Origin: a virus
Taxonomy: Duplodnaviria; Caudoviricetes
IMG/VR virus record: IMGVR_UViG_3300028603_000017
Coordinates: 160,001-224,000 of that record
Direction: 5' to 3' (one strand)
Length of the DNA stretch: 64,000 nt
The translations under genes and the position numbers were made by a program. Below are positions 84 to 63,964 of this stretch, piece after piece (position 1 is the stretch's first letter; every line of letters starts with the position of its first letter). The notes below the pieces were generated by a model. It was not told the origin of the DNA, did not search any database, and saw only the letters and a list, made by a program, of their open reading frames with translations.

Positions 84-380
84 TTGCTCAATGCTTTAGA
101 CTATAAAGACAGAATCATAGCCAACTGCATGATCAAGTCTGTAGCTGAAGTATTTTGTCTACCAGTTATATATCCCAGACACAACATCATTAAAAACGAT
201 ATTTCTGAATTTGATCAGTATTTCTACAATAAAGTCAAAACACTATCTGATTTCTTGGTTTTTCAACATGTAGATCGTCAAAGCTTATCTATGTTCAATG
301 GAGACGAAGTGCTTTGTATATTGCACAATAGAGAGCTAATCCTTTTAAACCACAATGAGTCAATTCACCAGTCTGTCTGA
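84..380 (+). CDS. hypothetical protein (true 5' end may lie upstream or outside the window)
   Basis: 98-aa ORF from TTG, overlapping the next gene; no recognisable motif. Confidence 0.45.
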   Translation: MLNALDYKDRIIANCMIKSVAEVFCLPVIYPRHNIIKNDISEFDQYFYNKVKTLSDFLVFQHVDRQSLSMFNGDEVLCILHNRELILLNHNESIHQSV

Positions 381-1029
381 TATCTTAGTTGCCAATAGTC
401 ACATCATCCTGTCTTTAGGAGAAGTAGCTAGTTTCATAGAGAGAAAATATGCTAAGGTAATAAAACCTTATGCCAAAGGTATTTATAAGATCGGTGAGAG
501 ATATCCGTCTGTGGTCAGCGATGTAACTTATTTTGTTAAGGATACGCAAGATCATAATAAAGTTGAACAATTAACAGATATATCCAGTTTAACGGATACT
601 AGTTATATTGTTGATGAAAATAACTCTGTCGTTATAGATAATTTCTATATTAAGAACAGAGACTCAGCTTTATCTATGTCTCCATCTTTACCTATTCATG
701 GGTATGAAATAGCCAAACAAGCTATTGCTCACTACATAGGAAAAAGAAATCCCTATACAAGAGATGCTAGTACAGCTTTAAACCATATTAGCAAACTCCT
801 GATAGATGGCATCGACCATCAAGATGCTATTACCTTTATTCTAGACGAATGTGTATTTACGCCTGTGTATATGCAGATCGATAGTTTTATAGGTAAAGAT
901 ATCTATCATGTGTATTTTTATAAAACAGTTAGTATTTGCGATTTGGTCATTGAAAAAACCATTGACTGGAGAGCATACCAATGGCACTTAAACCAACAAG
1001 ATCAAGACAGTGAGCATCATTATCCTTGA
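355..1029 (+). CDS. hypothetical protein
   Basis: 224-aa ORF, first of a tightly overlapping operon. Confidence 0.75.
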   Translation: MSQFTSLSDILVANSHIILSLGEVASFIERKYAKVIKPYAKGIYKIGERYPSVVSDVTYFVKDTQDHNKVEQLTDISSLTDTSYIVDENNSVVIDNFYIKNRDSALSMSPSLPIHGYEIAKQAIAHYIGKRNPYTRDASTALNHISKLLIDGIDHQDAITFILDECVFTPVYMQIDSFIGKDIYHVYFYKTVSICDLVIEKTIDWRAYQWHLNQQDQDSEHHYP

Positions 1030-1462
1030 ACTTGAAAATTGTAGATCCAGATTTGAGAGCATAGTGAGGTCTTTAATTCAAGCAAAGGGTCTACAGTTTT
1101 CTGTAATTGATACATCTAAGATAGATTTAATTTACAATGAGATAGCACAACTGCTTACTAACAATATCTTAGAATCAATTAAAAATAAGAGTCTTAGCTA
1201 CACGATGCTAGACTCTGCCACAGCCAGTATTGACATTACATCTGTTGTCGATAGATTTAACTACCATTTGTTTAGTGAGTATTCGATAGATATCTCATTT
1301 GACTCTTTGTATCAGATGGTGTCAAATATTGAGATGTCTGTGATAAATGATATTGTTTATCATTTACCCAATATCGATAATAATGATTTAGAGATCGTAT
1401 CTCACCACTTTGAGCCTATTAACAACTTAGTAATTGAATACAATAATGTTGTTACTGCTTGA
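1010..1462 (+). CDS. hypothetical acidic protein (possible paralog-array member)
   Basis: 150-aa ORF overlapping both neighbours. Confidence 0.7.
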   Translation: MSIIILELENCRSRFESIVRSLIQAKGLQFSVIDTSKIDLIYNEIAQLLTNNILESIKNKSLSYTMLDSATASIDITSVVDRFNYHLFSEYSIDISFDSLYQMVSNIEMSVINDIVYHLPNIDNNDLEIVSHHFEPINNLVIEYNNVVTA

Positions 1463-1802
1463 CTATAATGAACTCAGATACAATTTCATGGCCTGTAAGC
1501 CTTTGTCAGACCATGTTGAGTTATCTGAGTTCATTGATATCCTACTTAAAAATAGTCCAGATCAAAGCGATAGGTATTTAAAAGCCAATCTTTGGCAAGC
1601 CATAGAGTCATCGACTGCATTTAGCAGCGATGATTTTATTATGTCTGTCAATGACGACTATTTAACAGCTATCGATGTATTGATAGAGACTTATGGTGAT
1701 TTTCTTTTTAACTTCATTAAGCAAAAGTCTGGAATTGATATCTTTGAAAAAAATATTAAAGGTATTCAATTCAATAGCGATAGCTTGATTATTCAACTAT
1801 GA
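1434..1802 (+). CDS. hypothetical acidic protein (possible paralog-array member)
   Basis: 122-aa ORF; ATGA overlap with the next gene. Confidence 0.7.
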   Translation: MNTIMLLLLDYNELRYNFMACKPLSDHVELSEFIDILLKNSPDQSDRYLKANLWQAIESSTAFSSDDFIMSVNDDYLTAIDVLIETYGDFLFNFIKQKSGIDIFEKNIKGIQFNSDSLIIQL

Positions 1803-2209
1803 CAAATGAATTACCTTATCAATATATCGTCGTCAATATTGATAAGTCTTATTCTAAACTCAAGAACTATCTAGAAGTATCTTGGCTACCCACTATTGAT
1901 ATAGAAGCGCTGCTCTCTATTATCTTTACTGTTTTTAGCAGAGTCTCTGAAGTAGAAACAACAACAGACAGAACTATTCAGGAACTACTGCTAGAAACCT
2001 TTGAATTCAAAGACAGCACTTTAGTCACTAACGTAGCATTTTCTCAATATATGACTAAAGTGCTGCAAGATGTTGTGCAAGATATTTATGATGAACTCCT
2101 GCATCAAGGATTCTTAATTTACGAAACATTTCCTTATGAATACCGACGCTCGCTACCAGACGGAAGCGTGGTGCTCGCCAAGATTGTTGATACTGGATCT
2201 ACAGTATGA
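1799..2209 (+). CDS. hypothetical acidic protein (possible paralog-array member)
   Basis: 136-aa ORF, translationally coupled to the previous gene. Confidence 0.75.
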   Translation: MTNELPYQYIVVNIDKSYSKLKNYLEVSWLPTIDIEALLSIIFTVFSRVSEVETTTDRTIQELLLETFEFKDSTLVTNVAFSQYMTKVLQDVVQDIYDELLHQGFLIYETFPYEYRRSLPDGSVVLAKIVDTGSTV

Positions 2210-2597
2210 TCATATATTGGTAGAGACTCTTCTAAATACCATAAATCCAGACGTTAAGCAAGAAGATATTCTTCTGACTATCTTTGCTGAACTATTATCT
2301 AAAAACAAAGACAAAATAGTAGATACTTATGCTTTTGCTGAATTTGTGGTAGCAATATGTGTAGATTCTCTAGAAATGATGGAGACTTATAAAGAAGAAG
2401 TCTTTATTCTACAAACGATCTTTGCCAATTGTGTTGAAGCTGTTGAGGACACTATATTCCCTTTTAATTTAACGGACTACCAAATGTTTGTAGACTGGGA
2501 TATTGGTCAGATCATGTTAATTCATCCTGAAGCAATAGATCAAATTCAAGAATGTTTTAATAATGCAAGCTACCAACCCATTGTTTCAGCCCAATAA
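2136..2597 (+). CDS. hypothetical acidic protein (start uncertain)
   Basis: 153-aa ORF within the operon. Confidence 0.65.
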   Translation: MNTDARYQTEAWCSPRLLILDLQYDHILVETLLNTINPDVKQEDILLTIFAELLSKNKDKIVDTYAFAEFVVAICVDSLEMMETYKEEVFILQTIFANCVEAVEDTIFPFNLTDYQMFVDWDIGQIMLIHPEAIDQIQECFNNASYQPIVSAQ

Positions 2598-2994
2598 ACT
2601 ACCTTTGTCTGAAATTGTTATTATTGAATCCTACGATATCTTTGAGTTATTCAATGCTTTAGAGTTTGAAGTATCTTGGAACTCACAACAAGAAATACTC
2701 AGACAAGCTTTTAAAGTGCTGGATGATCCTCAGCTAAAGTTAGGTACTCCTATTACAACAATAACAATGTCAGCTGGTATTGTTACTCGTTATTTGGTAG
2801 AGGAGTTTTCTATCAATCAAATGGTAGTGCTTAATGATCTGTTTAGGAAAATAATTTTAACGATCTACTTCAGATGTTATGAAAACAAATTGTTTGTAGG
2901 ATCAAATTATCCAACAGTACCAGCTTTTCCTTATTTCCTAGAGAATATAGATTTAGCTGGTTGTGTTCTTAGGTTGGATAGAACATATTTTTAG
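2563..2994 (+). CDS. hypothetical protein (possible paralog-array member)
   Basis: 143-aa ORF within the operon. Confidence 0.7.
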   Translation: MQATNPLFQPNKLPLSEIVIIESYDIFELFNALEFEVSWNSQQEILRQAFKVLDDPQLKLGTPITTITMSAGIVTRYLVEEFSINQMVVLNDLFRKIILTIYFRCYENKLFVGSNYPTVPAFPYFLENIDLAGCVLRLDRTYF

Positions 2995-3005
2995 GTTTGA
3001 CATAA

Positions 3006-3392
3006 ATGCTATCCATCAATTCCTATTATTCCTTTAATACCAAGGTACCAGGTATTTTAGGAGAATCATTTAATAATTTAAAATTGGTATCTGTTATGAC
3101 GTATGAGTTAGCTTCTAACTACATCAACGTTGTTTCAATGCATGCCAATATTTATCCAGCTTTACCGCAAGGTATTCCAGATAATCCTGAGAGTTATACT
3201 TATTATCTATTCAAAACAGAATCCAACACCAACGTGGTTTTGGCTGATGTGTGGATTGATGATAATACTATTACAGAAAAAGGCTCTCAATCGATGGTCG
3301 TTGAGATTCCTAGAGTAACCAACTCTGATATTGTCAGACTCAATACTGTTTTGAGAACAATGGGATTTAACTACACTTCTCGTGTGGTGTAA
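3006..3392 (+). CDS. conserved jumbo-phage hypothetical protein (phiKZ gp49-like by position)
   Basis: 128-aa ORF (HANIYPALP...YTYYLF...WID) upstream of the DNA polymerase gene, as in phiKZ-like phages. Confidence 0.65.
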   Translation: MLSINSYYSFNTKVPGILGESFNNLKLVSVMTYELASNYINVVSMHANIYPALPQGIPDNPESYTYYLFKTESNTNVVLADVWIDDNTITEKGSQSMVVEIPRVTNSDIVRLNTVLRTMGFNYTSRVV

Positions 3393-3419
3393 TAATTTAT
3401 TACTGTATATATTCTATGT

Positions 3420-3905
3420 GAAGTAATCACGAATAACAAAGATGTATCTAAATAACTAGGCTGGAGTAGTGAATAACACTCTGATCTGGTTATTGGATGT
3501 ATCTTTATGCGGTTATTTCCGTCGTTGTTGTGTTGTGAAGAGTCGAACCCTGTGAGTAATAGCGCTTACAGCCATAAATCTCCTTGTGCTTGATGCTTAC
3601 AAGGCTGTAATTGATTGCTATTTACTCACAGGGCTAGACCTAAAAGGTTTCGTAGTGTTGAAGTCGCTGAACCCACATACCTTAGAGCGAGCCCTACTCG
3701 GACTCTATTAATACTTCAACACGTTTTAGGGAGTGAGCAAAGCCGAGGGCGTCGGTTTCAAAGAAAAGTAAATGTTTGACAAAACTCTTTTTCTTTCCTT
3801 TTTCAGGTTTTGTCAAATGGTTCGGGCCATTGGTTGTGGAAGTCAGTGAAGTGATGGTGCTTTTCTTGTTGTTCACGAAACGAAACTAGGTATGTGGTGT
3901 TCTAT
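3420..3905 (+). ncRNA. candidate large structured non-coding RNA
   Basis: No credible ORF. Long stems with many G-U pairs: 3438-3449/3495-3506, 3548-3559/3622-3633, 3655-3664/3713-3722, 3761-3770/3858-3867, 3775-3786/3806-3817. Crossing pairings 3673-3682/3888-3897 and 3647-3653/3875-3881. TATATT promoter-like motif upstream and a palindrome downstream. Confidence 0.6.
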
Positions 3906-3913
3906 ACAAGCTG

Positions 3914-3949
3914 GTAGCTATTTCTGTCCAATTGGACAGAAATAGCTAC
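3914..3949. terminator. perfect 36-bp palindrome (intergenic hairpin family)
   Basis: gtagctatttctgtccaa/ttggacagaaatagctac followed by TATG. Confidence 0.6.
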
Positions 3950-4011
3950 TATGCTGCTAATTTTATTTTTTCACCATTATGTTGTGTTAATAGGTAGAAT
4001 TTAAAAAAGTA

Positions 4012-6141
4012 ATGCAAAACCCATTTATTCTCCCAGCAGAGCAATATAAAAGAACAATTGATCCTTTAGGAGACTATTTGAATCAAACAGCACATTACCT
4101 GAATATTTCTACAGGTAAAGCTTTTGATGAATGCAAAGAGTTTGTTAAAAAGAAACTCAAAGACGGCACTTTTCAAATAAAGATTCCACAAGTACAATAC
4201 ATGGAACGTCAAGAAAATGGCGACCGTGTATTGCTCAGAGGATCTTTATTAGGCTATATTCAGCAAACTGTTAAAAATGGTGATGTGATAGCTCCGTCTT
4301 TTACAACATATAAACATGCTGATAAATATGAATCTTTACTAGCTAGCTTCATTGATGGTAACGTAGCCGGTAGATCTAAAGCTAAAAAAGAAGAGTTTGC
4401 TGCTAAAGCTGCTGGTAAAAAAGACTTAGCACAATATAAAAACCTAGAGCAAACAGGCAGAAAGCTATCCAATAATGCTATTTCTGGTGCTCACGTATCA
4501 ACCAGTACGCCATTGGTCAATAAAACAGCTCATTCGTCTTTGACCAGTACATGTAGGGCAACATCTGGATACGGTAATGCCAATAACGAAAAACTCATGA
4601 CTGGCAATAGACATTACTGGAATCCTAATGTTACTTTAAACAATATAGTTTCTATCGTTACCCATACAGACTATGAGCTCTTACAATCTGTCGTAACAAA
4701 ATACAATATCCATCTTCCTACTGTGGAGGATACGATGGATTGTATTCAGTATTCTTCAGATATATATTGGAAAAATGAAGTAGCTATGAACCATATTTAT
4801 GAACTCGTAGCAAAACTCACTCCACTACAAAGAGCTGCTTTTGTTTATACAGGCGATCTTTATCATTTAAGAAAACACAACGATCAGCTCTTAAGAGTAT
4901 TCTTATCTCAGTTATCATCTAAGCACTACGAGATTGATGTAGAAGATACTTTTGATTTTGTTAAGAACTCTAGAGAAGATTATCTTAATTTAGCTCATCA
5001 GATATGTTCTGATGAAATGAGATCCAAAGGTAAAGATTATGTTGCTTTAAAAGGTACTACCAATTTAAAGACACTAGCTGCTACTACCAGAAATATTGAT
5101 TCAGTATTAACCAATTATGCTGATTTAATTAAAGCTATAATGGTTACTGAGAATATGCCTGCATCAGTAGCATATTTTCCTGAATCTGTCAGACGAGCTG
5201 CTCTGATGTCAGATACAGACTCTACTATCTTTACTGTAGAGGAGTGGGTACAATGGTATTGTGGTGATATTGGTTTTAAGCAAGAACATATGTCAATAGC
5301 AGCAAGCTGTATCTTTTTAGCAGCTCAAGCTATCACACATATTCTGGCTATGATGTCAGCTAACTTTAACGTACAGAAAAAACGTCTTTATCAAATTGCG
5401 ATGAAGAACGAATTCAAGTTTGATGTATTTGTACCAACCAATGTAGCCAAACATTATTTTGCCAGTATATCTTGCCAGGAAGGCAATATCTTAGCTGAAT
5501 CTGATGTAGAAATCAAAGGTGTTCACTTAAAGAACTCTAATTCTCCAAAATTCATTACGAGCAAAGCTTCAAAGATGATGGAAGAGATTATGAATACTAT
5601 TATGGATACAGGTAAGATATCTATTCTTAAGTATCTGAAAGAGATTGCTGATATTGAAAGAACTGTTTTTGATTCTATTAAAAATGGTAAACTGGAGTTC
5701 TTTAGATTAGGAGAAATCAAGCAGCCTCAAGCTTATGTCAGAAAACCTGAGGAATCTCCATATGTTTACAATATGCTTTGGGAACAAGTCTTTGCTCCTA
5801 AATATGGTCCAGCTCCTGCATTACCCTATCAAACATTAAGAGTAGCTACTACGATTGATAATCCTACAAAGACCAAGAAGTGGTTAGAGAGTATGGAAGA
5901 TAGAGAATTAGCTGAACGTATGAGAAACTGGTTAGGTGGATTAGGTAAAGTCAATTTACCGAGTTTAATGCTACCGGCAGAGATTACAACAACTAATGGT
6001 ATTCCTAAAGAGATTTTAGATATTATTGATACTAGAAAGATTGTGTATAATTTATGCAAGATTTTCTATTTGATATTAGAGACATTAGGTTTTTATATTT
6101 GTAATGATAATATTACTCGACTAGTATCTGACCAATATTGA
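4012..6141 (+). CDS. divergent B-family DNA polymerase, polymerase-domain subunit (phiKZ gp50-like)
   Basis: Motif B-like KLSNNAISG, motif C SDTDS, and KHYFA and EIKGV motifs; located just upstream of the chimallin block. Confidence 0.85.
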   Translation: MQNPFILPAEQYKRTIDPLGDYLNQTAHYLNISTGKAFDECKEFVKKKLKDGTFQIKIPQVQYMERQENGDRVLLRGSLLGYIQQTVKNGDVIAPSFTTYKHADKYESLLASFIDGNVAGRSKAKKEEFAAKAAGKKDLAQYKNLEQTGRKLSNNAISGAHVSTSTPLVNKTAHSSLTSTCRATSGYGNANNEKLMTGNRHYWNPNVTLNNIVSIVTHTDYELLQSVVTKYNIHLPTVEDTMDCIQYSSDIYWKNEVAMNHIYELVAKLTPLQRAAFVYTGDLYHLRKHNDQLLRVFLSQLSSKHYEIDVEDTFDFVKNSREDYLNLAHQICSDEMRSKGKDYVALKGTTNLKTLAATTRNIDSVLTNYADLIKAIMVTENMPASVAYFPESVRRAALMSDTDSTIFTVEEWVQWYCGDIGFKQEHMSIAASCIFLAAQAITHILAMMSANFNVQKKRLYQIAMKNEFKFDVFVPTNVAKHYFASISCQEGNILAESDVEIKGVHLKNSNSPKFITSKASKMMEEIMNTIMDTGKISILKYLKEIADIERTVFDSIKNGKLEFFRLGEIKQPQAYVRKPEESPYVYNMLWEQVFAPKYGPAPALPYQTLRVATTIDNPTKTKKWLESMEDRELAERMRNWLGGLGKVNLPSLMLPAEITTTNGIPKEILDIIDTRKIVYNLCKIFYLILETLGFYICNDNITRLVSDQY

Positions 6142-7553: not shown

Positions 7554-9440
7554 ATGGCTATTCATGACGGCACTTCACAACAAGCCGCACAACCTCAAGC
7601 AGCTACCCAAGCCGCATTTGATGCTCCTCTAGCAGCTACTGCAGCTGCACCTCAATCGCAAGCACAACAACAAAAAATGAACCAAACTTTCTCCTTTCAC
7701 TCCAACAGCGGTATCTTCGGCACGCCTATCGGTCGCACACCTGGCACGGAAGTGCTGGTGAGCCTGCAAGAAAAGCTCACCGAAATCTACAAGCAAGCCA
7801 AGGACAGTTCTTTTGAGTTTGCGCTCTTTCCTCTGGACAAGAACAACGAACAACAGCTGTATTTCTCAGCTCTGGTTGTTCTGGGTTTTGTACGTGGCGA
7901 TCGCAAGAACGCTGCCTACCACACCCTGATTCTGGAAGCTTCCAACGACGATCCAGGCTCTATCCATCAGCAAGTCCAAAACGACATGATCGAAGTGATT
8001 CGTGTTGCTTCGGATGCTTCGGATAACGAACTCAACAAGATCGCTGTGGAAAAGCTGACTCAAGCTTTCCCTGGCGTGCAGCTGTTTAACGCTGACTCTA
8101 TGGTTGTTCCTCGAAAGTTCAACCTGGAAGACAAGACAGCGGTGCACAATTTGGCACTGAACGCTGCTATGGCCAGTACCACGGAGCTGCGCAAGCGCAC
8201 TCCTGGTTATAGCGATCTGAATATGGCTGGCTTTGCTCGTGACTCTAGCCTGGTGGTAACACCTCGCTTTGAAACCAGCACTGTCAAGAACATTGATGAG
8301 CTGCCTCGTCGTCAAGACGTCAAGATCGTGTTTGGCTCTCAACAAGTCAAGCAACAAAACAACCAGTCTCTGAATTCAGGTGATCGTTCTGCTGCTCTGG
8401 CAGAGATCTCTGGCTATATTGACCTGCTGTGGGCTCCGGTTAATCCCGTGGCTCAATACGGTATGATGCCTGTGCCTGGCTATCAGATGCCTGCTCAAAA
8501 GTATGCAGCTAACCTGATCATTACCAACTTCTTCAGCCCTCGCCTGTCGACTCTGGCCGGTGTTCTGCTGGCTCTGACCACCGTCAAGGCTTTCTCCGAT
8601 CAGAACAACTGGTACGGTGCTTTCCGATCCAACGGCGTGCGTAGCAATATGCGCGATATTGGTTATCTGAACATCGAAGCCAATCTGGGTGGTGACCCGA
8701 ACCAGCCTGGCTCTCCTGTGGAAATCTCTATGGATTCCTACGGTGCGGCAGATCTGTATCGTTATCTGAACCAGCTGATCCGTCCGGGTCTGGCTATTTC
8801 GATTGACGTGCCTGAGTCTGGTCCTGAGTCCTGGCTGCTCTCAGTTCTGAGCGTAGCTGCCTCTGGCAGTGAGCACTCTGGTGATGCACAGCGCATGATC
8901 TTCAACGCTGCTCAAACGCTAACCAACGGTAACTTTGCGAATTTCTTCCCGCAAGGTGCATCCATGTTCGACAACGTTGGTAACCCTGTACATCTTGGTT
9001 ACTACGAGTCCGACAAGGATACCTACCGTGATATCCGTGATATCGACTACGTGGCTGTCGCTGCTCTGAGTCGTGATCTGGATAGCATCAAGCGCTGGTC
9101 TGATACCTGGACGGCTACGTCTGTTCCTCTGGGCAAGCGCATGGATACCCGTCAGCGCTTCATCCGTGATCTGACTGGTGGTAAGGCTGTGTTTACTGGT
9201 AAGGCTAACCGCGTTACCTTTAGCGCTGCTTTCATCGATGCTCTGGTCAAGGGCTGCGCGGCTGTGGGTGTTACGCCTCGTCTGGACGCCAATGGTCTGG
9301 GTAATGTGGTGGTGGATCGCGGCACCGCGTCCTTCATCGATCAAGCTCTGGTGGGTCCTGCACCTACTAACTTCTTCAGCTCCGGTATTGTGGGTGGCTA
9401 TACCAATAGCTATGCTCCCAACAACTTCCGTACCTGGTAA
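7554..9440 (+). CDS. chmA: chimallin, major phage nuclear shell protein (phiKZ gp54-like)
   Basis: 628 aa with a Q/A-rich flexible N-terminus, RDIGYLN and RDIRDIDYVAV motifs, GC-richer codon usage suggesting high expression, and position just upstream of the nvRNAP beta-prime gene. Confidence 0.85.
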   Translation: MAIHDGTSQQAAQPQAATQAAFDAPLAATAAAPQSQAQQQKMNQTFSFHSNSGIFGTPIGRTPGTEVLVSLQEKLTEIYKQAKDSSFEFALFPLDKNNEQQLYFSALVVLGFVRGDRKNAAYHTLILEASNDDPGSIHQQVQNDMIEVIRVASDASDNELNKIAVEKLTQAFPGVQLFNADSMVVPRKFNLEDKTAVHNLALNAAMASTTELRKRTPGYSDLNMAGFARDSSLVVTPRFETSTVKNIDELPRRQDVKIVFGSQQVKQQNNQSLNSGDRSAALAEISGYIDLLWAPVNPVAQYGMMPVPGYQMPAQKYAANLIITNFFSPRLSTLAGVLLALTTVKAFSDQNNWYGAFRSNGVRSNMRDIGYLNIEANLGGDPNQPGSPVEISMDSYGAADLYRYLNQLIRPGLAISIDVPESGPESWLLSVLSVAASGSEHSGDAQRMIFNAAQTLTNGNFANFFPQGASMFDNVGNPVHLGYYESDKDTYRDIRDIDYVAVAALSRDLDSIKRWSDTWTATSVPLGKRMDTRQRFIRDLTGGKAVFTGKANRVTFSAAFIDALVKGCAAVGVTPRLDANGLGNVVVDRGTASFIDQALVGPAPTNFFSSGIVGGYTNSYAPNNFRTW

Positions 9441-10086: not shown

Positions 10087-12045
10087 GTGGCTGTATCTGA
10101 AGAGTTAGTTAATTTCAACCAGCTATTTAATCAGCTAAAGCAACCTCCCTTGATTATCAACGATATTGTTGAGACATCAGCAGAGGAAAAAGATACACTG
10201 AAGAATCTGATATTTACTAAGTATGATTCTGATGTGATGAAAAACGTACCTAGCTGTGACTGTGGTAGTATCACAGGTGAATACAATATCGGTGTTCTAT
10301 GTAAAAACTGTGATACCGAAGTTGTATCAGCTGTAGATAAAGAGCTAGAGCCTATTCTTTGGGTAAGAGCGCCTAAGAATATTCATGCATTAATTAATCC
10401 TACTGTTTGGACTCAGTTATCTCTGAGATTCAAGAAGAGTAATTTTGATACTATTCGCTGGATTTGTGATACAACTTATAGAGTAGGACCTAATGATGGA
10501 GCTATTGTAGCTGAGCTGCAAGAAGCTGGTATTACCAGAGGTTACAATAACTTTATTGAAAACTTTTACGATATCATCAATCGCTTATTTGAGATGAGGA
10601 GTTTTTCCTCTAAATCAAGAGTGACTTATGATCTACTACCACAATTGCTGGTAGAAAATAAAGATTCAATATTCTCTCAATATCTACCACTGGTTAACAG
10701 AACCATGCTAGTAATTGAGTCTACGACTGTTGGTACATATGTCGATCCATTTGTACCTACTGCTATTGATGCTATTTTAACAGTAGCATCAATTGATGTG
10801 GATGAATCTAGGTTTTCTATTAGGACAAAGGAAAACAGAGTTGCTAAGTTCCTATCTGGAATCAGTAGTTATTACTATAACTTTGCGAAAAACAATCTAG
10901 GTAGAAAGTCAGGCACCTATAGGCAACACGTTTATGGATCACGATCTCACTTCTCATTTAGAGCGGTGGTGTCGTCTTTAACGGACGCTCACCAGTATGA
11001 TGAGATTCATATTCCGTGGGGTATCGGAATTACTATATTTCGATATCACATCATCAATAAACTCATTCGACGAGGATATACCGTCAATCAAGCGATATAT
11101 CTGATTAATGCACACGCAAAGGTATTTCATCCACTCATTAACGAGATCTTTAAAGAACTCATTGATGAATCACCTCGTAAAGGTGTCGATGTAACTATTA
11201 ATCGAAATCCCTCTTTGGTACGTGGATCTATTCAAAGAGTGAGGATTACTAAAGTCAAAGAAGATACCTCAATCAATACTGTTTCATTCAGCATTTTGAT
11301 TGTAGGTCCCATGAACGCTAAAGATTGGTGTTCTAAAAGCTCCTTAATTGCTGGGAACTCCTGTAAAGGACAATCAGCAGCTGATCCTAGATACATATCT
11401 AGGCGAGTTCAACGACTAGTCGAAAGACGTACAGCCAAGCGGCTGGAAACAGGAGCCAGTCTCTGAATAAGAGATGGAAGATATAGTCTGAACATCTGTG
11501 GTAACACAGAGCTGGATTCACTATCCGGGTAATGCGTAGCGAACATTGCTGAACATATTTGGATTTTGACGGTGGAAGCATTGCCGTCTCGAAAGCTTTT
11601 GAATTGCTGGGAACTCTCACACCGAGACAATCAGCAGCCAAGATCTTATTTGCTTACCGGTAAATAGGATAAGGTTCAACGACTATCCCGAAAGGGAGTA
11701 CAGCCAAGCGGCTGGAAGCGGAAGCCACCAAACCAGGTGAAGATATAGTCTGAACATCTATGGTGACATAGAGCGAAGCAGGTAATGCTGCGGGTTAGGA
11801 AATAGCGAGCCTAGCTGAACAATACGGATGCCCTTAATTTCACTTTGACTTTAGATAACGATTTGTCTGAAGAGCTCAAGCATCTTGATCCACATAAGAG
11901 CTGTTTTGAACTCGATGAACCTAGAACCATCTCTGGCAATCTCTCGATTCCCAAGACAGTTGTAGGCACAATTAGTAATTGGTTACATTTTGAAGAACCT
12001 GATAACACACCCACGGACTTTATGAAGTCTATTGCAATAGGTTAA
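10087..12045 (+). CDS. non-virion RNA polymerase beta-prime N-terminal/catalytic subunit (phiKZ gp55-56.1-like), spliced: join(10087..11319,11562..11573,11827..12045), 487 aa
   Basis: Zn-binding CDCG...CKNC, KSGTYRQHVYGSR, RAVVS and NRNPSL motifs; joining the three exons in frame restores GPMNA-DFDG-DALNF, i.e. the catalytic NADFDGD. Confidence 0.92.
11320..11561 (+). ncRNA. group I intron 1 (IA2-like, 242 nt, no homing endonuclease ORF)
   Basis: 5' exon ends in U and pairs with IGS GGUGUUC (U-G at the splice site); core elements P AAUUGCUGGGAA, Q AAUCAGCAGC, R GUUCAACGACUA, S AAGAUAUAGUCU; P7.1/P7.2-like hairpins; terminal G at 11561. Confidence 0.92.
11574..11826 (+). ncRNA. group I intron 2 (IA2-like, 253 nt, no homing endonuclease ORF)
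   Basis: Exon GACGGU pairs with IGS GCCGUC; P10 GCAUU pairs with 3' exon GAUGC; same P/Q/R/S cores; terminal G at 11826. Confidence 0.92.
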
Positions 12046-63520: not shown

Positions 63521-63597
63521 CCGGCCGTAACTCAGCGGATAGTAGTAATCCCCTTCTAAGGGATAAGTCGGGGGTTCGAATCCCTCCGGCCGGACCA
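63521..63597 (+). tRNA. tRNA-Arg (anticodon TCT)
   Basis: Acceptor ccggccg/cggccgg, anticodon arm atccc-cttctaa-gggat, GTTCGAAT T-loop, encoded CCA. Confidence 0.9.
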
Positions 63598-63624
63598 TAA
63601 ATCTTTAATAGTTTTCTTAATAGT

Positions 63625-63713
63625 GCCCGGATGGTGAAATTGGTAGACACAACGGACTTAAAATCCGTCGGCCTTAACGGGTCGTACCGGTTCGATTCCG
63701 GTTCTGGGCACCA
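63625..63713 (+). tRNA. tRNA-Leu (anticodon TAA)
   Basis: Anticodon arm acgga-cttaaaa-tccgt, long variable arm, GTTCGATT, A73, encoded CCA. Confidence 0.93.
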
Positions 63714-63736
63714 TTAAGAAAATTACAACAAAATAC

Positions 63737-63836
63737 TTCCAGTGAGATTAGGATAGTAGGTCATAGGTCGACAATAGTTGATACTGGCTTAGAACTGAAG
63801 CTAGATGGTGTAGTCGTTCGATTCAGCCACTGGAAA
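63737..63836 (+). ncRNA. tRNA-like structured element or pseudo-tRNA
   Basis: Terminal stem ttccagtg/cactggaa, internal hairpin ctggct/agctag, GTTCGATTC; no canonical cloverleaf and no CCA. Confidence 0.4.
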
Positions 63837-63879
63837 CTAATTCATAAAGAATATAAAATGAAAAATTGGTAAGATTAAT

Positions 63880-63964
63880 GGGTGTGTGGCCGAATGGTTA
63901 GGCAGCGGCCTCATAAGCCGTGAGGGAAACCTCTAAGTAGGATCGTGACCTATCGCACCCACCA
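63880..63964 (+). tRNA. tRNA with anticodon CAT (Met or Ile2) on a class II, long-variable-arm body
   Basis: Acceptor gggtgtg/cgcaccc, anticodon arm gcggc-ctcataa-gccgt, variable arm gagg-gaaa-cctc, atypical T-loop ATCGTGA, A73, encoded CCA. Confidence 0.8.

What the first reader, a model, noticed from the sequence alone, without database searches (positions are those of the whole stretch)
3400..3950. ~500-nt highly structured, pseudoknotted candidate ncRNA upstream of the DNA polymerase gene
The 620-bp gap has no credible ORF but folds into four long domains. A: 3430-3517 (aaagatgtatct/ggatgtatcttt, aataactagg/tctggttatt, tggagt/actctg). B: 3548-3633 (ccctgtgagtaa/ttactcacaggg, ttacagcc/ggctgtaa). 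C: 3639-3730 (cctaaaa/ttttagg, gtgttgaagt/acttcaacac). D: 3761-3867 (aagaaaagta/tgcttttctt, tttgacaaaact/ggttttgtcaaa). Mismatches within the stems are mostly G-U, which points to RNA-level structure on the + strand. Unpaired parts of domain C pair with the 3' tail in crossing order (gtttcgt 3647-3653 with acgaaac 3875-3881; ccacatacct 3673-3682 with aggtatgtgg 3888-3897), giving a double pseudoknot. A TATATT early-promoter-like motif (~3408) precedes it and a 36-bp palindrome follows it, so it looks like its own transcription unit. I do not recognise it as tmRNA, RNase P or an intron. It may be an undescribed large phage RNA.
Basis: partly seen in the sequence, partly recalled or inferred. 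Interest (0 to 1): 0.8.

Follow-up and report, generated by a model that had tools for sequence, protein, structure and literature searches.

The report
Conserved pseudoknotted RNA in jumbo phages
Between a baseplate gene and the DNA polymerase gene of a nucleus-forming giant phage lies a gene for a roughly 550-base non-coding RNA whose folds, one long-range knot and a ribosome-like pyrimidine loop are kept in a dozen distant relatives; it matches no described RNA family and its role is still unknown.

Summary
All eleven helices are at the stated coordinates. The 619-nt gap (3393-4011) folds far better than shuffles (z -7.4), has no conserved ORF under any code, and matches nothing in Rfam 15.

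The same gene-free gap lies after the gp49-like gene in 11 other uncultured chimalliviruses (polymerase identity 90-56%). A covariance model found four of them blind. Base pairing is kept through compensatory changes: 96% of cells paired, 32 of 33 pairs with double changes. The long-range pairing 3673-3682/3888-3897 covaries on a sequence-only alignment.

- The conserved partner of 3647-3652 is 3881-3886, not 3875-3881.
- Helix C1 is not conserved, so there is one pseudoknot, not two.
- The palindrome is the phage's standard terminator.
- Domain A occurs only in close relatives.

The most conserved unpaired element is a pyrimidine hairpin loop with an anti-Shine-Dalgarno-like core. It is found in 46 of 86 chimallivirus loci, against about 10 in shuffles. 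Across lineages it matches the cognate polymerase ribosome-binding site better than non-cognate ones (p 0.003), but not in this window's own clade.

Verdict: a real, undescribed structured phage RNA. Its mechanism, probably SD-directed riboregulation, is inferred only.

The parts
3006..3392 (+). Upstream gene: gp49-like SH3-fold protein (Pfam SH3DP)
   Evidence: Pfam PF20287, E 5e-28. It matches PDB chain 9xqs_M 'PHIKZ049', a baseplate ring protein of phiKZ (PMC13250141). The RNA directly follows this gene in all relatives.
3406..3423 (+). Conserved promoter-like box TATATATTCTATGTGAAG; the 5' end of the RNA is inferred to lie here
   Evidence: Conserved in alignment A2 across relatives. A similar TATGTGAAT box precedes the polymerase gene in the phiKZ-like phage SL2 and in PhiPA3. 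The transcription start is not mapped. It is not a sigma-70 site.
3438..3506 (+). Domain A, a long imperfect hairpin with five G-U pairs
   Evidence: Helices verified. A hairpin at the equivalent place is predicted only in window, L009, L010, L011 and L012, so it is a clade-specific addition.
3548..3633 (+). Domain B, a long hairpin (12-bp perfect closing stem, 8-bp inner stem) preceded by UGUGAAGAGUCGAA
   Evidence: A long hairpin immediately 5' of the core is present in 11 of 12 members, with unrelated stem sequences. The UGAAGAG-type leader is shared with the FLC9 group and L043.
3647..3652 (+). P_a 5' strand (GUUUCG), closing helix of the core
   Evidence: Pairs with 3881-3886. Kept with different sequences in L012, L013, L014 and L098, up to 9 bp. 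Weak in L015, L099, L100 and L101.
3655..3722 (+). P_b hairpin (3655-3664 with 3713-3722) enclosing the PK2 5' strand and P_c (3683-3691 with 3697-3707)
   Evidence: All 10 P_b pairs and all 8 modelled P_c pairs show changes on both sides; 98% and 96% of cells are paired. P_b also holds on the MAFFT-only alignment.
3673..3682 (+). PK2 5' strand (CCACAUACCU) in the internal loop of P_b
   Evidence: Pairs with 3888-3897. On the sequence-only alignment A10, 7 of 10 pairs have changes on both sides and 89% of cells are paired. Fully compensated examples occur in L012, L015 and L099.
3743..3755 (+). P_d, a small hairpin of the three-way junction
   Evidence: 3 of 4 pairs have changes on both sides.
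3761..3867 (+). Domain D: helix D1 (3761-3770 with 3858-3867) enclosing hairpin P_e (3775-3785 with 3807-3817) and a variable hairpin
   Evidence: D1 is recovered in about 10 of 12 members with different sequences, for example 15 bp in L015. All 11 P_e pairs have changes on both sides.
3786..3806 (+). Conserved pyrimidine apical loop UCUUUUUCUUUCCUUUUUCAG with an anti-SD-like core UUUCCUU
   Evidence: It is the most conserved unpaired sequence. It is complementary to the genome's enriched ribosome-site words AAGGAAA and AGGAAAC. Equivalent loops occur in 46 of 86 chimallivirus loci, against 9.8 +/- 2.9 in shuffles.
3881..3886 (+). P_a 3' strand (CGAAAC, second copy)
   Evidence: L009 keeps only this copy; it aligns with the single copy in all relatives.
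3888..3897 (+). PK2 3' strand (AGGUAUGUGG)
3914..3971 (+). Phage-type terminator: 36-bp perfect palindrome 3914-3949, then TATGCTGC (3950-3957) and a T-rich run (3961-3971)
   Evidence: All 12 members have a perfect 13-20-bp hairpin of different sequence followed by UAUG and a U-rich run. The genome holds about 98 intergenic hairpin+TATG sites. phiKZ terminators are described as a hairpin followed by TTATKYYGT (PMC10914365).
3978..3990 (+). Second conserved box TATGTTGTGTTAA, 22 nt upstream of the polymerase start; possibly the polymerase gene's own promoter
   Evidence: TATA(A/T)TGTG-like in most relatives. Its function is not tested.
4012..6141 (+). Downstream gene: divergent family B DNA polymerase
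   Evidence: Pfam PF20286, E 4e-247; PHROG 2927. Its ribosome-binding region in this window has no recognisable SD.

Best explanation
Window 3406-3971 encodes a discrete, stable, non-coding RNA of about 550 nt on the + strand. It belongs to a previously undescribed family found in a clade of nucleus-forming jumbo phages (Chimalliviridae).

Transcription is inferred to start at a conserved TATG-containing box just after the gp49-like baseplate gene. It ends at the phage's standard hairpin+TATG terminator, about 40 nt before the DNA polymerase gene.

Shown by covariation:
- One or two long 5' hairpins.
- A core in which helix P_a closes a three-way junction of P_b/P_c, P_d and D1/P_e.
- A pseudoknot that locks the core by pairing the internal loop of P_b with the 10 nt immediately 3' of P_a.
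- This scaffold displays a 17-21-nt single-stranded pyrimidine loop whose core resembles the anti-Shine-Dalgarno tail of 16S rRNA.

Most likely mechanism (inferred, not shown): the loop pairs with purine-rich ribosome-binding regions of phage mRNAs. The polymerase mRNA is the best-supported target in several lineages. The RNA would then act as a riboregulator of translation or mRNA stability, either in trans or in cis on read-through transcripts. Such a device fits a phage that makes its mRNA in a ribosome-free compartment.
For: Real structured RNA:
- z -7.4 on the + strand, which is 34 kcal/mol better than the - strand.
- 12 members at 100-56% polymerase identity share the core. Four were found blind by model R2, at E 1e-29 to 1e-5.
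- 96.4% of cells are paired; 32 of 33 pairs have changes on both sides; 0 of 500 shuffles reach this; slid controls give 32-41%.
- PK2 holds on a MAFFT-only alignment: 7 of 10 pairs with double changes.
- P_a, D1 and domain B are kept with unrelated sequences.
- 23 G-U cells fit only the + strand.
- There is no conserved ORF. The RNA is single copy.

Transcription unit:
- Standard phage terminator (PMC10914365).
- Conserved 5' box.

Mechanism:
- The loop is the most conserved unpaired element and complements the genome's SD words.
- Anti-SD-like pyrimidine hairpin loops follow the gp49-like gene in 46 of 86 loci, against 9.8 +/- 2.9 in dinucleotide shuffles. They include CCUCCUU-type loops in GC-rich phages.
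- Pairing of the loop with the cognate polymerase ribosome site is stronger than with non-cognate sites at group level (-7.70 vs -6.68 kcal/mol, p 0.003, 20 groups).
- The control with gp49 ribosome sites shows nothing (p 0.63).
- Lineage-specific matches extend beyond the SD core in the FLC9 group, L069, L074, L023 and L015.
Against: - No transcript data exist for any member. The 5' end and the promoter are inferred.
- In this window's own clade the polymerase ribosome site lacks an SD and ranks 18 of 20 for loop pairing.
- In the window's genome the loop pairs with start regions only marginally better than with intragenic sequence (median -6.5 vs -6.0 kcal/mol, p 0.02). The polymerase ranks 118-174 of 265.
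- One loop per 550 nt is a poor stoichiometric sponge.
- A/U-rich low-complexity pairing is easy to find by chance.
- The CM-fitted alignment leans towards the modelled structure, although PK2 and P_b were confirmed without fitting.
- The broader 'family' beyond about 56% polymerase identity rests mainly on the loop hairpin. The full core is not detected there.
Confidence: 0.4

Rival explanations
1. Cis-acting leader (attenuator) of the DNA polymerase operon. The structured RNA is the 5' leader, and the terminator at 3914-3971 is a regulated stop. A protein such as the polymerase itself, or a small ligand, would control read-through and so set polymerase expression inside the ribosome-free phage nucleus.
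For: - The RNA is always upstream of, and co-oriented with, the polymerase or an operon that contains it.
- The 5' box resembles the box upstream of the polymerase gene in phiKZ-like SL2 and in PhiPA3. There a short leader carries a hairpin plus a U/pyrimidine run.
- ONT-cappable-seq of phiKZ gave 17 candidate ncRNAs derived from 5'UTRs, apparently by premature termination (PMC10914365).
- The 3' strands of P_a and PK2 lie 13-16 nt before the terminator, as in riboswitch expression platforms.
Against: - No conserved alternative (antiterminator) pairing links the switch region and the terminator arm: cognate -7.55 vs non-cognate -7.89 kcal/mol.
- The terminator is an ordinary, very strong genome-wide type.
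- A second conserved promoter-like box lies between the terminator and the polymerase start.
- In L020, L024 and L045 other genes separate the RNA from the polymerase.
- No riboswitch family matches.
Confidence: 0.2
2. Protein-binding scaffold or decoy. The pseudoknotted core presents the pyrimidine loop, a mimic of the 16S 3' tail, to a protein. Candidates are ribosomal protein S1, Hfq, a cold-shock protein, an rRNA-tail-directed nuclease, or a phage RNA-binding protein. The RNA would sequester or recruit that protein.
For: - A long single-stranded pyrimidine loop on a rigid stem is conserved in sequence while all stems drift.
- Specific RNA targets are weak in the window's own genome.
- S1, Hfq and cold-shock proteins prefer U/pyrimidine-rich single strands (own knowledge, not tested).
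Against: - No partner protein is identifiable from the neighbourhood. The adjacent gp49-like protein is a baseplate component.
- Co-variation of the loop with the polymerase ribosome site is not expected for a pure protein site.
Confidence: 0.15
3. A long structured 3' UTR of the late baseplate-gene operon, co-transcribed with genes 355-3392. It would stabilise or localise that mRNA and would not be an independent gene.
For: - No terminator lies between the gp49-like stop (3392) and the RNA in this clade.
- The RNA stays attached to the 3' side of the gp49-like gene even when other genes are inserted before the polymerase.
Against: - In phiKZ-like SL2 and in PhiPA3 a terminator directly follows gp49, before the conserved box.
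- A terminator hairpin alone normally gives 3' protection. A covarying three-way junction, a pseudoknot and a sequence-conserved loop are not needed for that.
Confidence: 0.1
4. A replication pre-primer, as ColE1 RNA II is for its plasmid. Chimalliviruses have no identified primase and carry an RNase H-clamp subunit (Rhc) on their polymerase. The structured transcript would form a hybrid with the DNA and be processed into a primer at an origin next to the polymerase gene.
For: - Its size and multi-hairpin architecture resemble RNA II (own knowledge).
- No primase or clamp has been identified in chimalliviruses. [quoted passage not shown]
- It lies in the replication-gene neighbourhood.
Against: - The RNA ends at a strong standard terminator rather than running into an origin.
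- The conserved tract is pyrimidine-rich in the RNA, which gives weak RNA:DNA hybrids.
- Cumulative GC skew shows no feature at this locus.
- The compact pseudoknotted fold argues for a free RNA.
Confidence: 0.06
5. Not an RNA gene: DNA-level inverted repeats (a protein-binding or recombination site), or a decayed mobile element or intron.
For: - There are several long perfect inverted repeats.
- The - strand also folds better than shuffles (z -7.2).
- Group I introns exist elsewhere in the window.
Against: - G-U pairs are tolerated only on the + strand.
- A long-range pseudoknot and a junction covary.
- No intron or other ribozyme family matches even at E<=10.
- The flanking genes are complete and separate.
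- The RNA is single copy in the genome.
Confidence: 0.03

Closest known systems
Staphylococcus aureus RNAIII and other riboregulators with C/U-rich loops (RsaE, RoxS)
   Same: A large multi-hairpin regulatory RNA (RNAIII is 514 nt) with pyrimidine-rich apical loops complementary to Shine-Dalgarno regions of target mRNAs (own knowledge). This RNA likewise has a conserved anti-SD-like apical loop, and across lineages that loop matches the cognate polymerase ribosome site.
   Different: There is no sequence or Rfam relationship. It is encoded by a phage. It has a pseudoknot-locked three-way junction. The loop is U-rich (UUUCCUU) in this clade. Targets are unproven, and the match is weak in the window's own phage.
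phiKZ 5'UTR-derived ncRNA candidates and phiKZ-type terminators (Putzeys et al. 2024, PMC10914365)
   Same: Same virus family. The same terminator grammar, a hairpin followed by TTATKYYGT, ends the RNA. A TATGTGAA-type box precedes the polymerase gene in phiKZ-like SL2 and in PhiPA3.
   Different: The phiKZ-like and PhiPA3 gaps are only about 185-200 nt and lack the P_a/P_b/PK2 core; models R2 and R3 do not match them. The reported candidates are short. I could not check whether one lies upstream of gp050, because the supplements are not held.
ROOL, GOLLD and OLE: large structured bacterial or phage ncRNAs of unknown or partly known function
   Same: Several hundred nucleotides long, intricate covarying structure with pseudoknots, often phage-borne, discovered by comparative genomics (own knowledge).
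   Different: No match to these Rfam models at E<=10. The architecture and genomic context differ: here the RNA lies between the gp49-like gene and the polymerase gene of chimalliviruses. No evidence on multimerisation.
ColE1 RNA II replication pre-primer
   Same: A structured transcript of about 550 nt next to replication functions. Chimalliviruses lack an identified primase and have an RNase H-clamp subunit.
   Different: It ends at a standard terminator. There is no sign of an origin. Its conserved tract is pyrimidine-rich in the RNA.

Membership tests
Any Rfam 15 family (including ROOL, GOLLD, OLE, tmRNA, RNase P, 6S, group I/II introns, riboswitches) | A covariance-model match at or near the family's gathering score | tested here: not met
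   There are no gathering-level hits in 3393-4011. At E<=10 the only matches are hairpin-only miRNA-type matches on the terminator palindrome, 14-23 bits against cut-offs of 34-140. There are no hits in 20 homologous loci. ARAGORN finds no tRNA or tmRNA.
Chimallivirus (phiKZ-type) transcription terminator | A stable hairpin immediately followed by a (T)TATG-YYG motif and a T-rich tail, used genome-wide | tested here: met
   The 3914-3949 palindrome is followed by TATGCTGC and a T-run. The same grammar is found in all 12 members and at about 98 intergenic sites in this genome. The motif is described for phiKZ in PMC10914365.
SD-targeting riboregulators (RNAIII/RsaE type) | A pyrimidine-rich apical loop complementary to Shine-Dalgarno sequences | tested here: met
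   The loop at 3786-3806 contains UUUCCUU, the complement of the genome's enriched AAGGAAA. CCUCCUU- and CUCCUU-type loops occur in other lineages. Enrichment is 46 of 86 loci against 9.8 in shuffles.
SD-targeting riboregulators (RNAIII/RsaE type) | Specific pairing with the ribosome-binding region of defined target mRNAs | tested here: inconclusive
   Cognate pairing with the polymerase site beats non-cognate pairing across 20 lineage groups (p 0.003; control gene p 0.63). There is no special target in the window's own genome or clade.
SD-targeting riboregulators (RNAIII/RsaE type) | A discrete trans-acting transcript | not testable with these tools
   All members come from metagenomes; no expression data are available.
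Transcription-attenuating riboswitch or leader | Mutually exclusive terminator and antiterminator pairings conserved across members | tested here: not met
   The duplex between the switch region and the terminator arm is no better for cognate than for non-cognate pairs: -7.55 vs -7.89 kcal/mol.
ColE1 RNA II-like pre-primer | The transcript continues into an origin and forms a persistent hybrid there | tested here: not met
   The transcript meets a strong standard terminator. There is no skew feature at the locus. Hybrid formation cannot be tested here.

The most novel reading that the evidence does not exclude
A phage-encoded mimic of the 16S rRNA 3' tail. A pseudoknot-locked RNA scaffold displays an anti-Shine-Dalgarno-like loop that engages the ribosome-binding sites of phage mRNAs, or a factor that recognises the 16S tail. 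This would give nucleus-forming phages, whose transcription and translation are physically separated, an RNA-based way to time or license translation of the DNA polymerase and perhaps many other genes.
Probability: 0.2. Interest if true: 0.9.

Novelty: new variant of a known kind. Interest (0 to 1): 0.78.

Why it matters
Large RNAs with complex, covarying folds are rare, and almost every such class has turned out to do something fundamental.

This one is conserved in a lineage of nucleus-forming jumbo phages. Their RNA biology is barely explored: mRNA export, translation control without coupling to transcription, and replication without an identified primase.

It gives a concrete, testable object: a defined secondary structure, one pseudoknot, and a conserved anti-SD-like loop next to the polymerase gene.

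If the loop does target ribosome-binding sites, it would be the first large riboregulator described for chimalliviruses. If it does not, it is still a new structured RNA class for structural and functional study.

Tried and rejected
- Nucleotide searches of cultured-phage records with the window RNA and with three distant homologues found nothing. The family is known only from metagenomes.
- The nearest cultured relatives carry divergent or much shorter versions: FLC9, RP12, pVa-21, Xoo-sp14, RTH11, phiKZ-like SL2 and PhiPA3.
- Model R3, built from 12 members, did not extend the full core beyond L043/L044 and L042.
- A genome-wide search for the 5' box as a general promoter failed. The motif is rare, and one apparent second site is part of a terminator hairpin. 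The sigma-70 scan is not meaningful for this phage.
- GC skew follows gene orientation and gives no clue to an origin.
- Conserved antiterminator pairing was not found.
- A specific target of the loop in the window's genome was not found. Chimallin start regions pair best among neighbouring genes, but chimallin ranks only 49 of 265 genome-wide, so this reflects its canonical SD.
- Whole-RNA duplex scans against the polymerase start region gave only uninterpretable long-loop duplexes.
- Coding potential under code 11 and under single-stop reassignments was rejected.
- Helix C1 (3639/3724) was rejected as a conserved element by inspection of A2, A9 and A10.
- Literature searches for a described chimallivirus structured ncRNA found none.
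Full report
**Context.** The window is bases 160001-224000 of a 261,198-bp IMG/VR virus record. The phage is a chimallivirus.
- Chimallin is at 7554-9440.
- The divergent family B DNA polymerase is at 4012-6141.
- An 'SH3DP' protein is at 3006-3392.
- The finding covers the 619-nt gene-free gap between the last two genes.

**Observation.** Their imperfections are G-U pairs on the + strand.
- The + strand folds to -199.9 kcal/mol, against -151.7 +/- 6.5 for dinucleotide shuffles (z -7.4).
- The - strand reaches only -165.8 kcal/mol.
- No ORF longer than 63 codons is open in the gap.
- Across 12 homologous gaps the longest open stretches differ in strand, frame and place, also with TGA, TAG or TAA reassigned.

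**Not a known RNA.**
- Rfam 15 gives nothing at gathering thresholds in the gap.
- At E<=10 it gives only hairpin-type miRNA matches on the terminal palindrome.
- It gives nothing in 20 homologous loci.
- ARAGORN finds no tRNA or tmRNA.
- blastn against 50,697 phage records finds nothing.
- Three literature searches returned no described chimallivirus structured RNA.

**Homologues.** The polymerase has a graded series of metagenomic relatives. For eleven of them (90, 71, 70, 68, 65, 64, 63, 61, 61, 58 and 56% identity) I fetched the DNA.
- Wherever the contig reaches that far, the order is kept: gp49-like gene, then a gene-free gap of about 360-620 nt, then the polymerase. In most, a 364-aa gene and chimallin follow.
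- A covariance model built from the window and its 90% relative found the next six.
- The model rebuilt from eight members found the four newly fetched loci blind, at E 1e-29, 2e-8, 9e-6 and 1e-5.
- The RNA is single copy in its genome.

**Structure shown by covariation.** On the model-fitted alignment of 12 sequences:
- 96.4% of 358 cells form standard pairs.
- 32 of 33 pairs show changes on both sides.
- No shuffle out of 500 reaches any of the measures.
- Sliding the partners by 1-3 columns drops pairing to 32-41%.

That alignment leans towards the model. I therefore tested the long-range pairing, which the model does not contain, on a plain MAFFT alignment. There 3673-3682 with 3888-3897 keeps 89% of cells paired, and 7 of 10 pairs change on both sides. 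L012, L015 and L099 show fully compensated variants.

Other helices:
- Helix P_a (3647-3652 with 3881-3886) recurs with different sequences in most members, up to 9 bp in L014 and L098. It is weak in L015, L099, L100 and L101.
- Helix D1 (3761-3770 with 3858-3867) recurs with different sequences in most members, up to 15 bp in L015.
- A long hairpin equivalent to domain B precedes the core in 11 of 12 members, with unrelated stem sequences. Domain A exists only in the five closest.
- The 23 G-U cells would be A-C mismatches on the other strand.

**Resulting architecture** (window coordinates):
- Conserved box, 3406-3423.
- Domain A, 3438-3506.
- Domain B, 3548-3633.
- A core closed by P_a that contains P_b (3655-3722, with P_c inside), P_d (3743-3755) and D1/P_e (3761-3867).
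- Directly 3' of P_a, the strand 3888-3897, which reaches back into the internal loop of P_b.

- The conserved partner of 3647-3652 is the second CGAAAC copy (3881-3886). L009 has lost the first copy.
- Helix C1 (3639/3724) is not conserved. P_a is therefore a nested closing helix, and the RNA has one pseudoknot rather than two.

**Ends of the RNA.**
- The 36-bp palindrome (3914-3949) is followed by TATGCTGC and a T-run.
- All 12 members have a perfect 13-20-bp hairpin of different sequence followed by UAUG and a U-rich run.
- The genome contains about 98 intergenic sites with the same grammar.
- For phiKZ, terminators were described as hairpins followed by TTATKYYGT (PMC10914365). The 3' end is thus the phage's ordinary terminator.
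- At the 5' side a TATA..TATGTGAA box is conserved in relatives. It resembles a box upstream of the polymerase gene in phiKZ-like SL2 and in PhiPA3.
- That this box is the promoter is an inference. The motif is too rare in the genome to be a general promoter, and no transcript data exist.
- A second conserved box (3978-3990) lies between the terminator and the polymerase start.

**Neighbourhood.**
- The upstream 'SH3DP' protein matches the PDB chain of phiKZ gp49. That protein forms a ring in the phiKZ baseplate (PMC13250141). The Pfam name reflects gene neighbourhood only.
- In more distant phages (L020, L024, L045) other genes are inserted before the polymerase. The structured region still follows the gp49-like gene directly.
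- Of 86 chimallivirus loci, about half have 300 nt or more without a 60-codon or longer ORF after that gene.

**The conserved loop.** The strongest primary-sequence conservation is the apical loop of P_e (3786-3806), pyrimidine-rich with the core UUUCCUU.
- This is the complement of the words most enriched upstream of genes in this genome (AAGGAAA, AGGAAAC).
- Hairpins with a pyrimidine loop carrying UCCU, CUCC or CCUU follow the gp49-like gene in 46 of 86 loci.
- The controls give 6 on the reverse strand, 2 in coding sequence and 9.8 +/- 2.9 in dinucleotide shuffles.
- In GC-richer lineages the loop reads CCUCCUU, as in the 16S rRNA tail (FLC9 group, L024, L040, L073).

**Is there a target?**
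- Grouping the loci into 20 lineages, the loop pairs better with the ribosome-binding region of its own polymerase gene than with those of other lineages: -7.70 vs -6.68 kcal/mol, permutation p 0.003.
- The same test on the gp49-like gene's start region shows nothing (p 0.63).
- Matches that extend beyond the SD core occur in the FLC9 group, L069, L074, L023 and L015.
- The signal is heterogeneous. The window's own clade ranks 18 of 20, and its polymerase start region has no SD.
- Genome-wide, the loop pairs with start regions only slightly better than with intragenic sequence. Neither the polymerase nor chimallin stands out.
- I found no conserved antiterminator pairing and no sign of an origin in GC skew.

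**Interpretation.**
- That this is a genuine, conserved, structured non-coding RNA of an undescribed family I hold at about 0.9.
- Its function is not shown.
- The best-supported mechanism is riboregulation through the anti-SD-like loop, with the polymerase mRNA as the likely target in several lineages. I give this about 0.4 including the cis variant. It would work like RNAIII-type regulators without being related to them.
- Rivals are listed separately with their evidence: a regulated leader of the polymerase operon, a protein decoy or scaffold, a structured 3' UTR, and an RNA II-like pre-primer. The last is attractive because chimalliviruses lack an identified primase and carry an RNase H-clamp subunit (PMC13648687).

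**Earlier notes of this scan.** The same stretch had been flagged from an overlapping window. Another first-stage note pointed to anti-SD-like loops. I tested the latter here, with mixed results.

**Novelty.** The RNA family is new. The likely mode of action has precedents. Hence 'new variant of a known kind', with high interest because of the strength of the comparative evidence and the biology of its hosts.

Noticed in passing
window 11309-11773: Two adjacent group I intron matches (RF00028, 78.9 and 93.7 bits), 30 nt apart on the + strand.
   Followed up: no
window 63521-63961: A cluster of three tRNA genes (Rfam RF00005, 45-58 bits).
   Followed up: no
whole genome G000 (e.g. genome 7246/7282, 19102/19136, 83845/83880): About 98 intergenic perfect 9-20-bp palindromes are followed by TATG(Y)(Y)G. 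Many are flanked by the motif on both strands, so they may act as bidirectional terminators. Several share a CTCCAGGTAGG core.
   Followed up: partly
window 3985-4014: The polymerase gene of this phage and of L010, L011 and L012 has no recognisable Shine-Dalgarno sequence. More distant relatives have AGGAG or AAGGAAA there.
   Followed up: partly
window 3891-3901 and 3978-3988: The sequence around the PK2 3' strand (TATGTGGTGTT) recurs with one mismatch just after the terminator (TATGTTGTGTT), followed by AATAGGTAG, which resembles ACTAGGTATG. In L011 the post-terminator box can pair 8 bp with the PK2 5' strand region. This may be an alternative partner on read-through transcripts, or chance.
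   Followed up: partly
window 3006-3392: Pfam names this family 'SH3 fold domain associated with phage DNA polymerases'. Its phiKZ homologue gp49 is resolved as a baseplate ring protein (PDB 9XQS). A separate ASO screen reports that it is needed for plaque formation (PMC12571901).
   Followed up: partly
L004 (Burkholderia phage FLC9) 2453-2988 and L026/L027 group: The FLC9-group gap has two hairpins with CCUCC-type loops (GCGG-UUCCUCCUC-CCGC and GGGG-UUUCCUCCUUGUUUC-CCCC). The second is complementary over 8 nt to the polymerase ribosome site ACAAGGAG.
   Followed up: partly
window 3531-3547: The motif UGUGAAGAGUCGAA before domain B resembles the 5' box (UAUGUGAAGUAAUC). It corresponds to the region that directly follows the box in members without domain A (L013, L014, L098). 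This suggests that domain A plus a second box arose by insertion or duplication.
   Followed up: no
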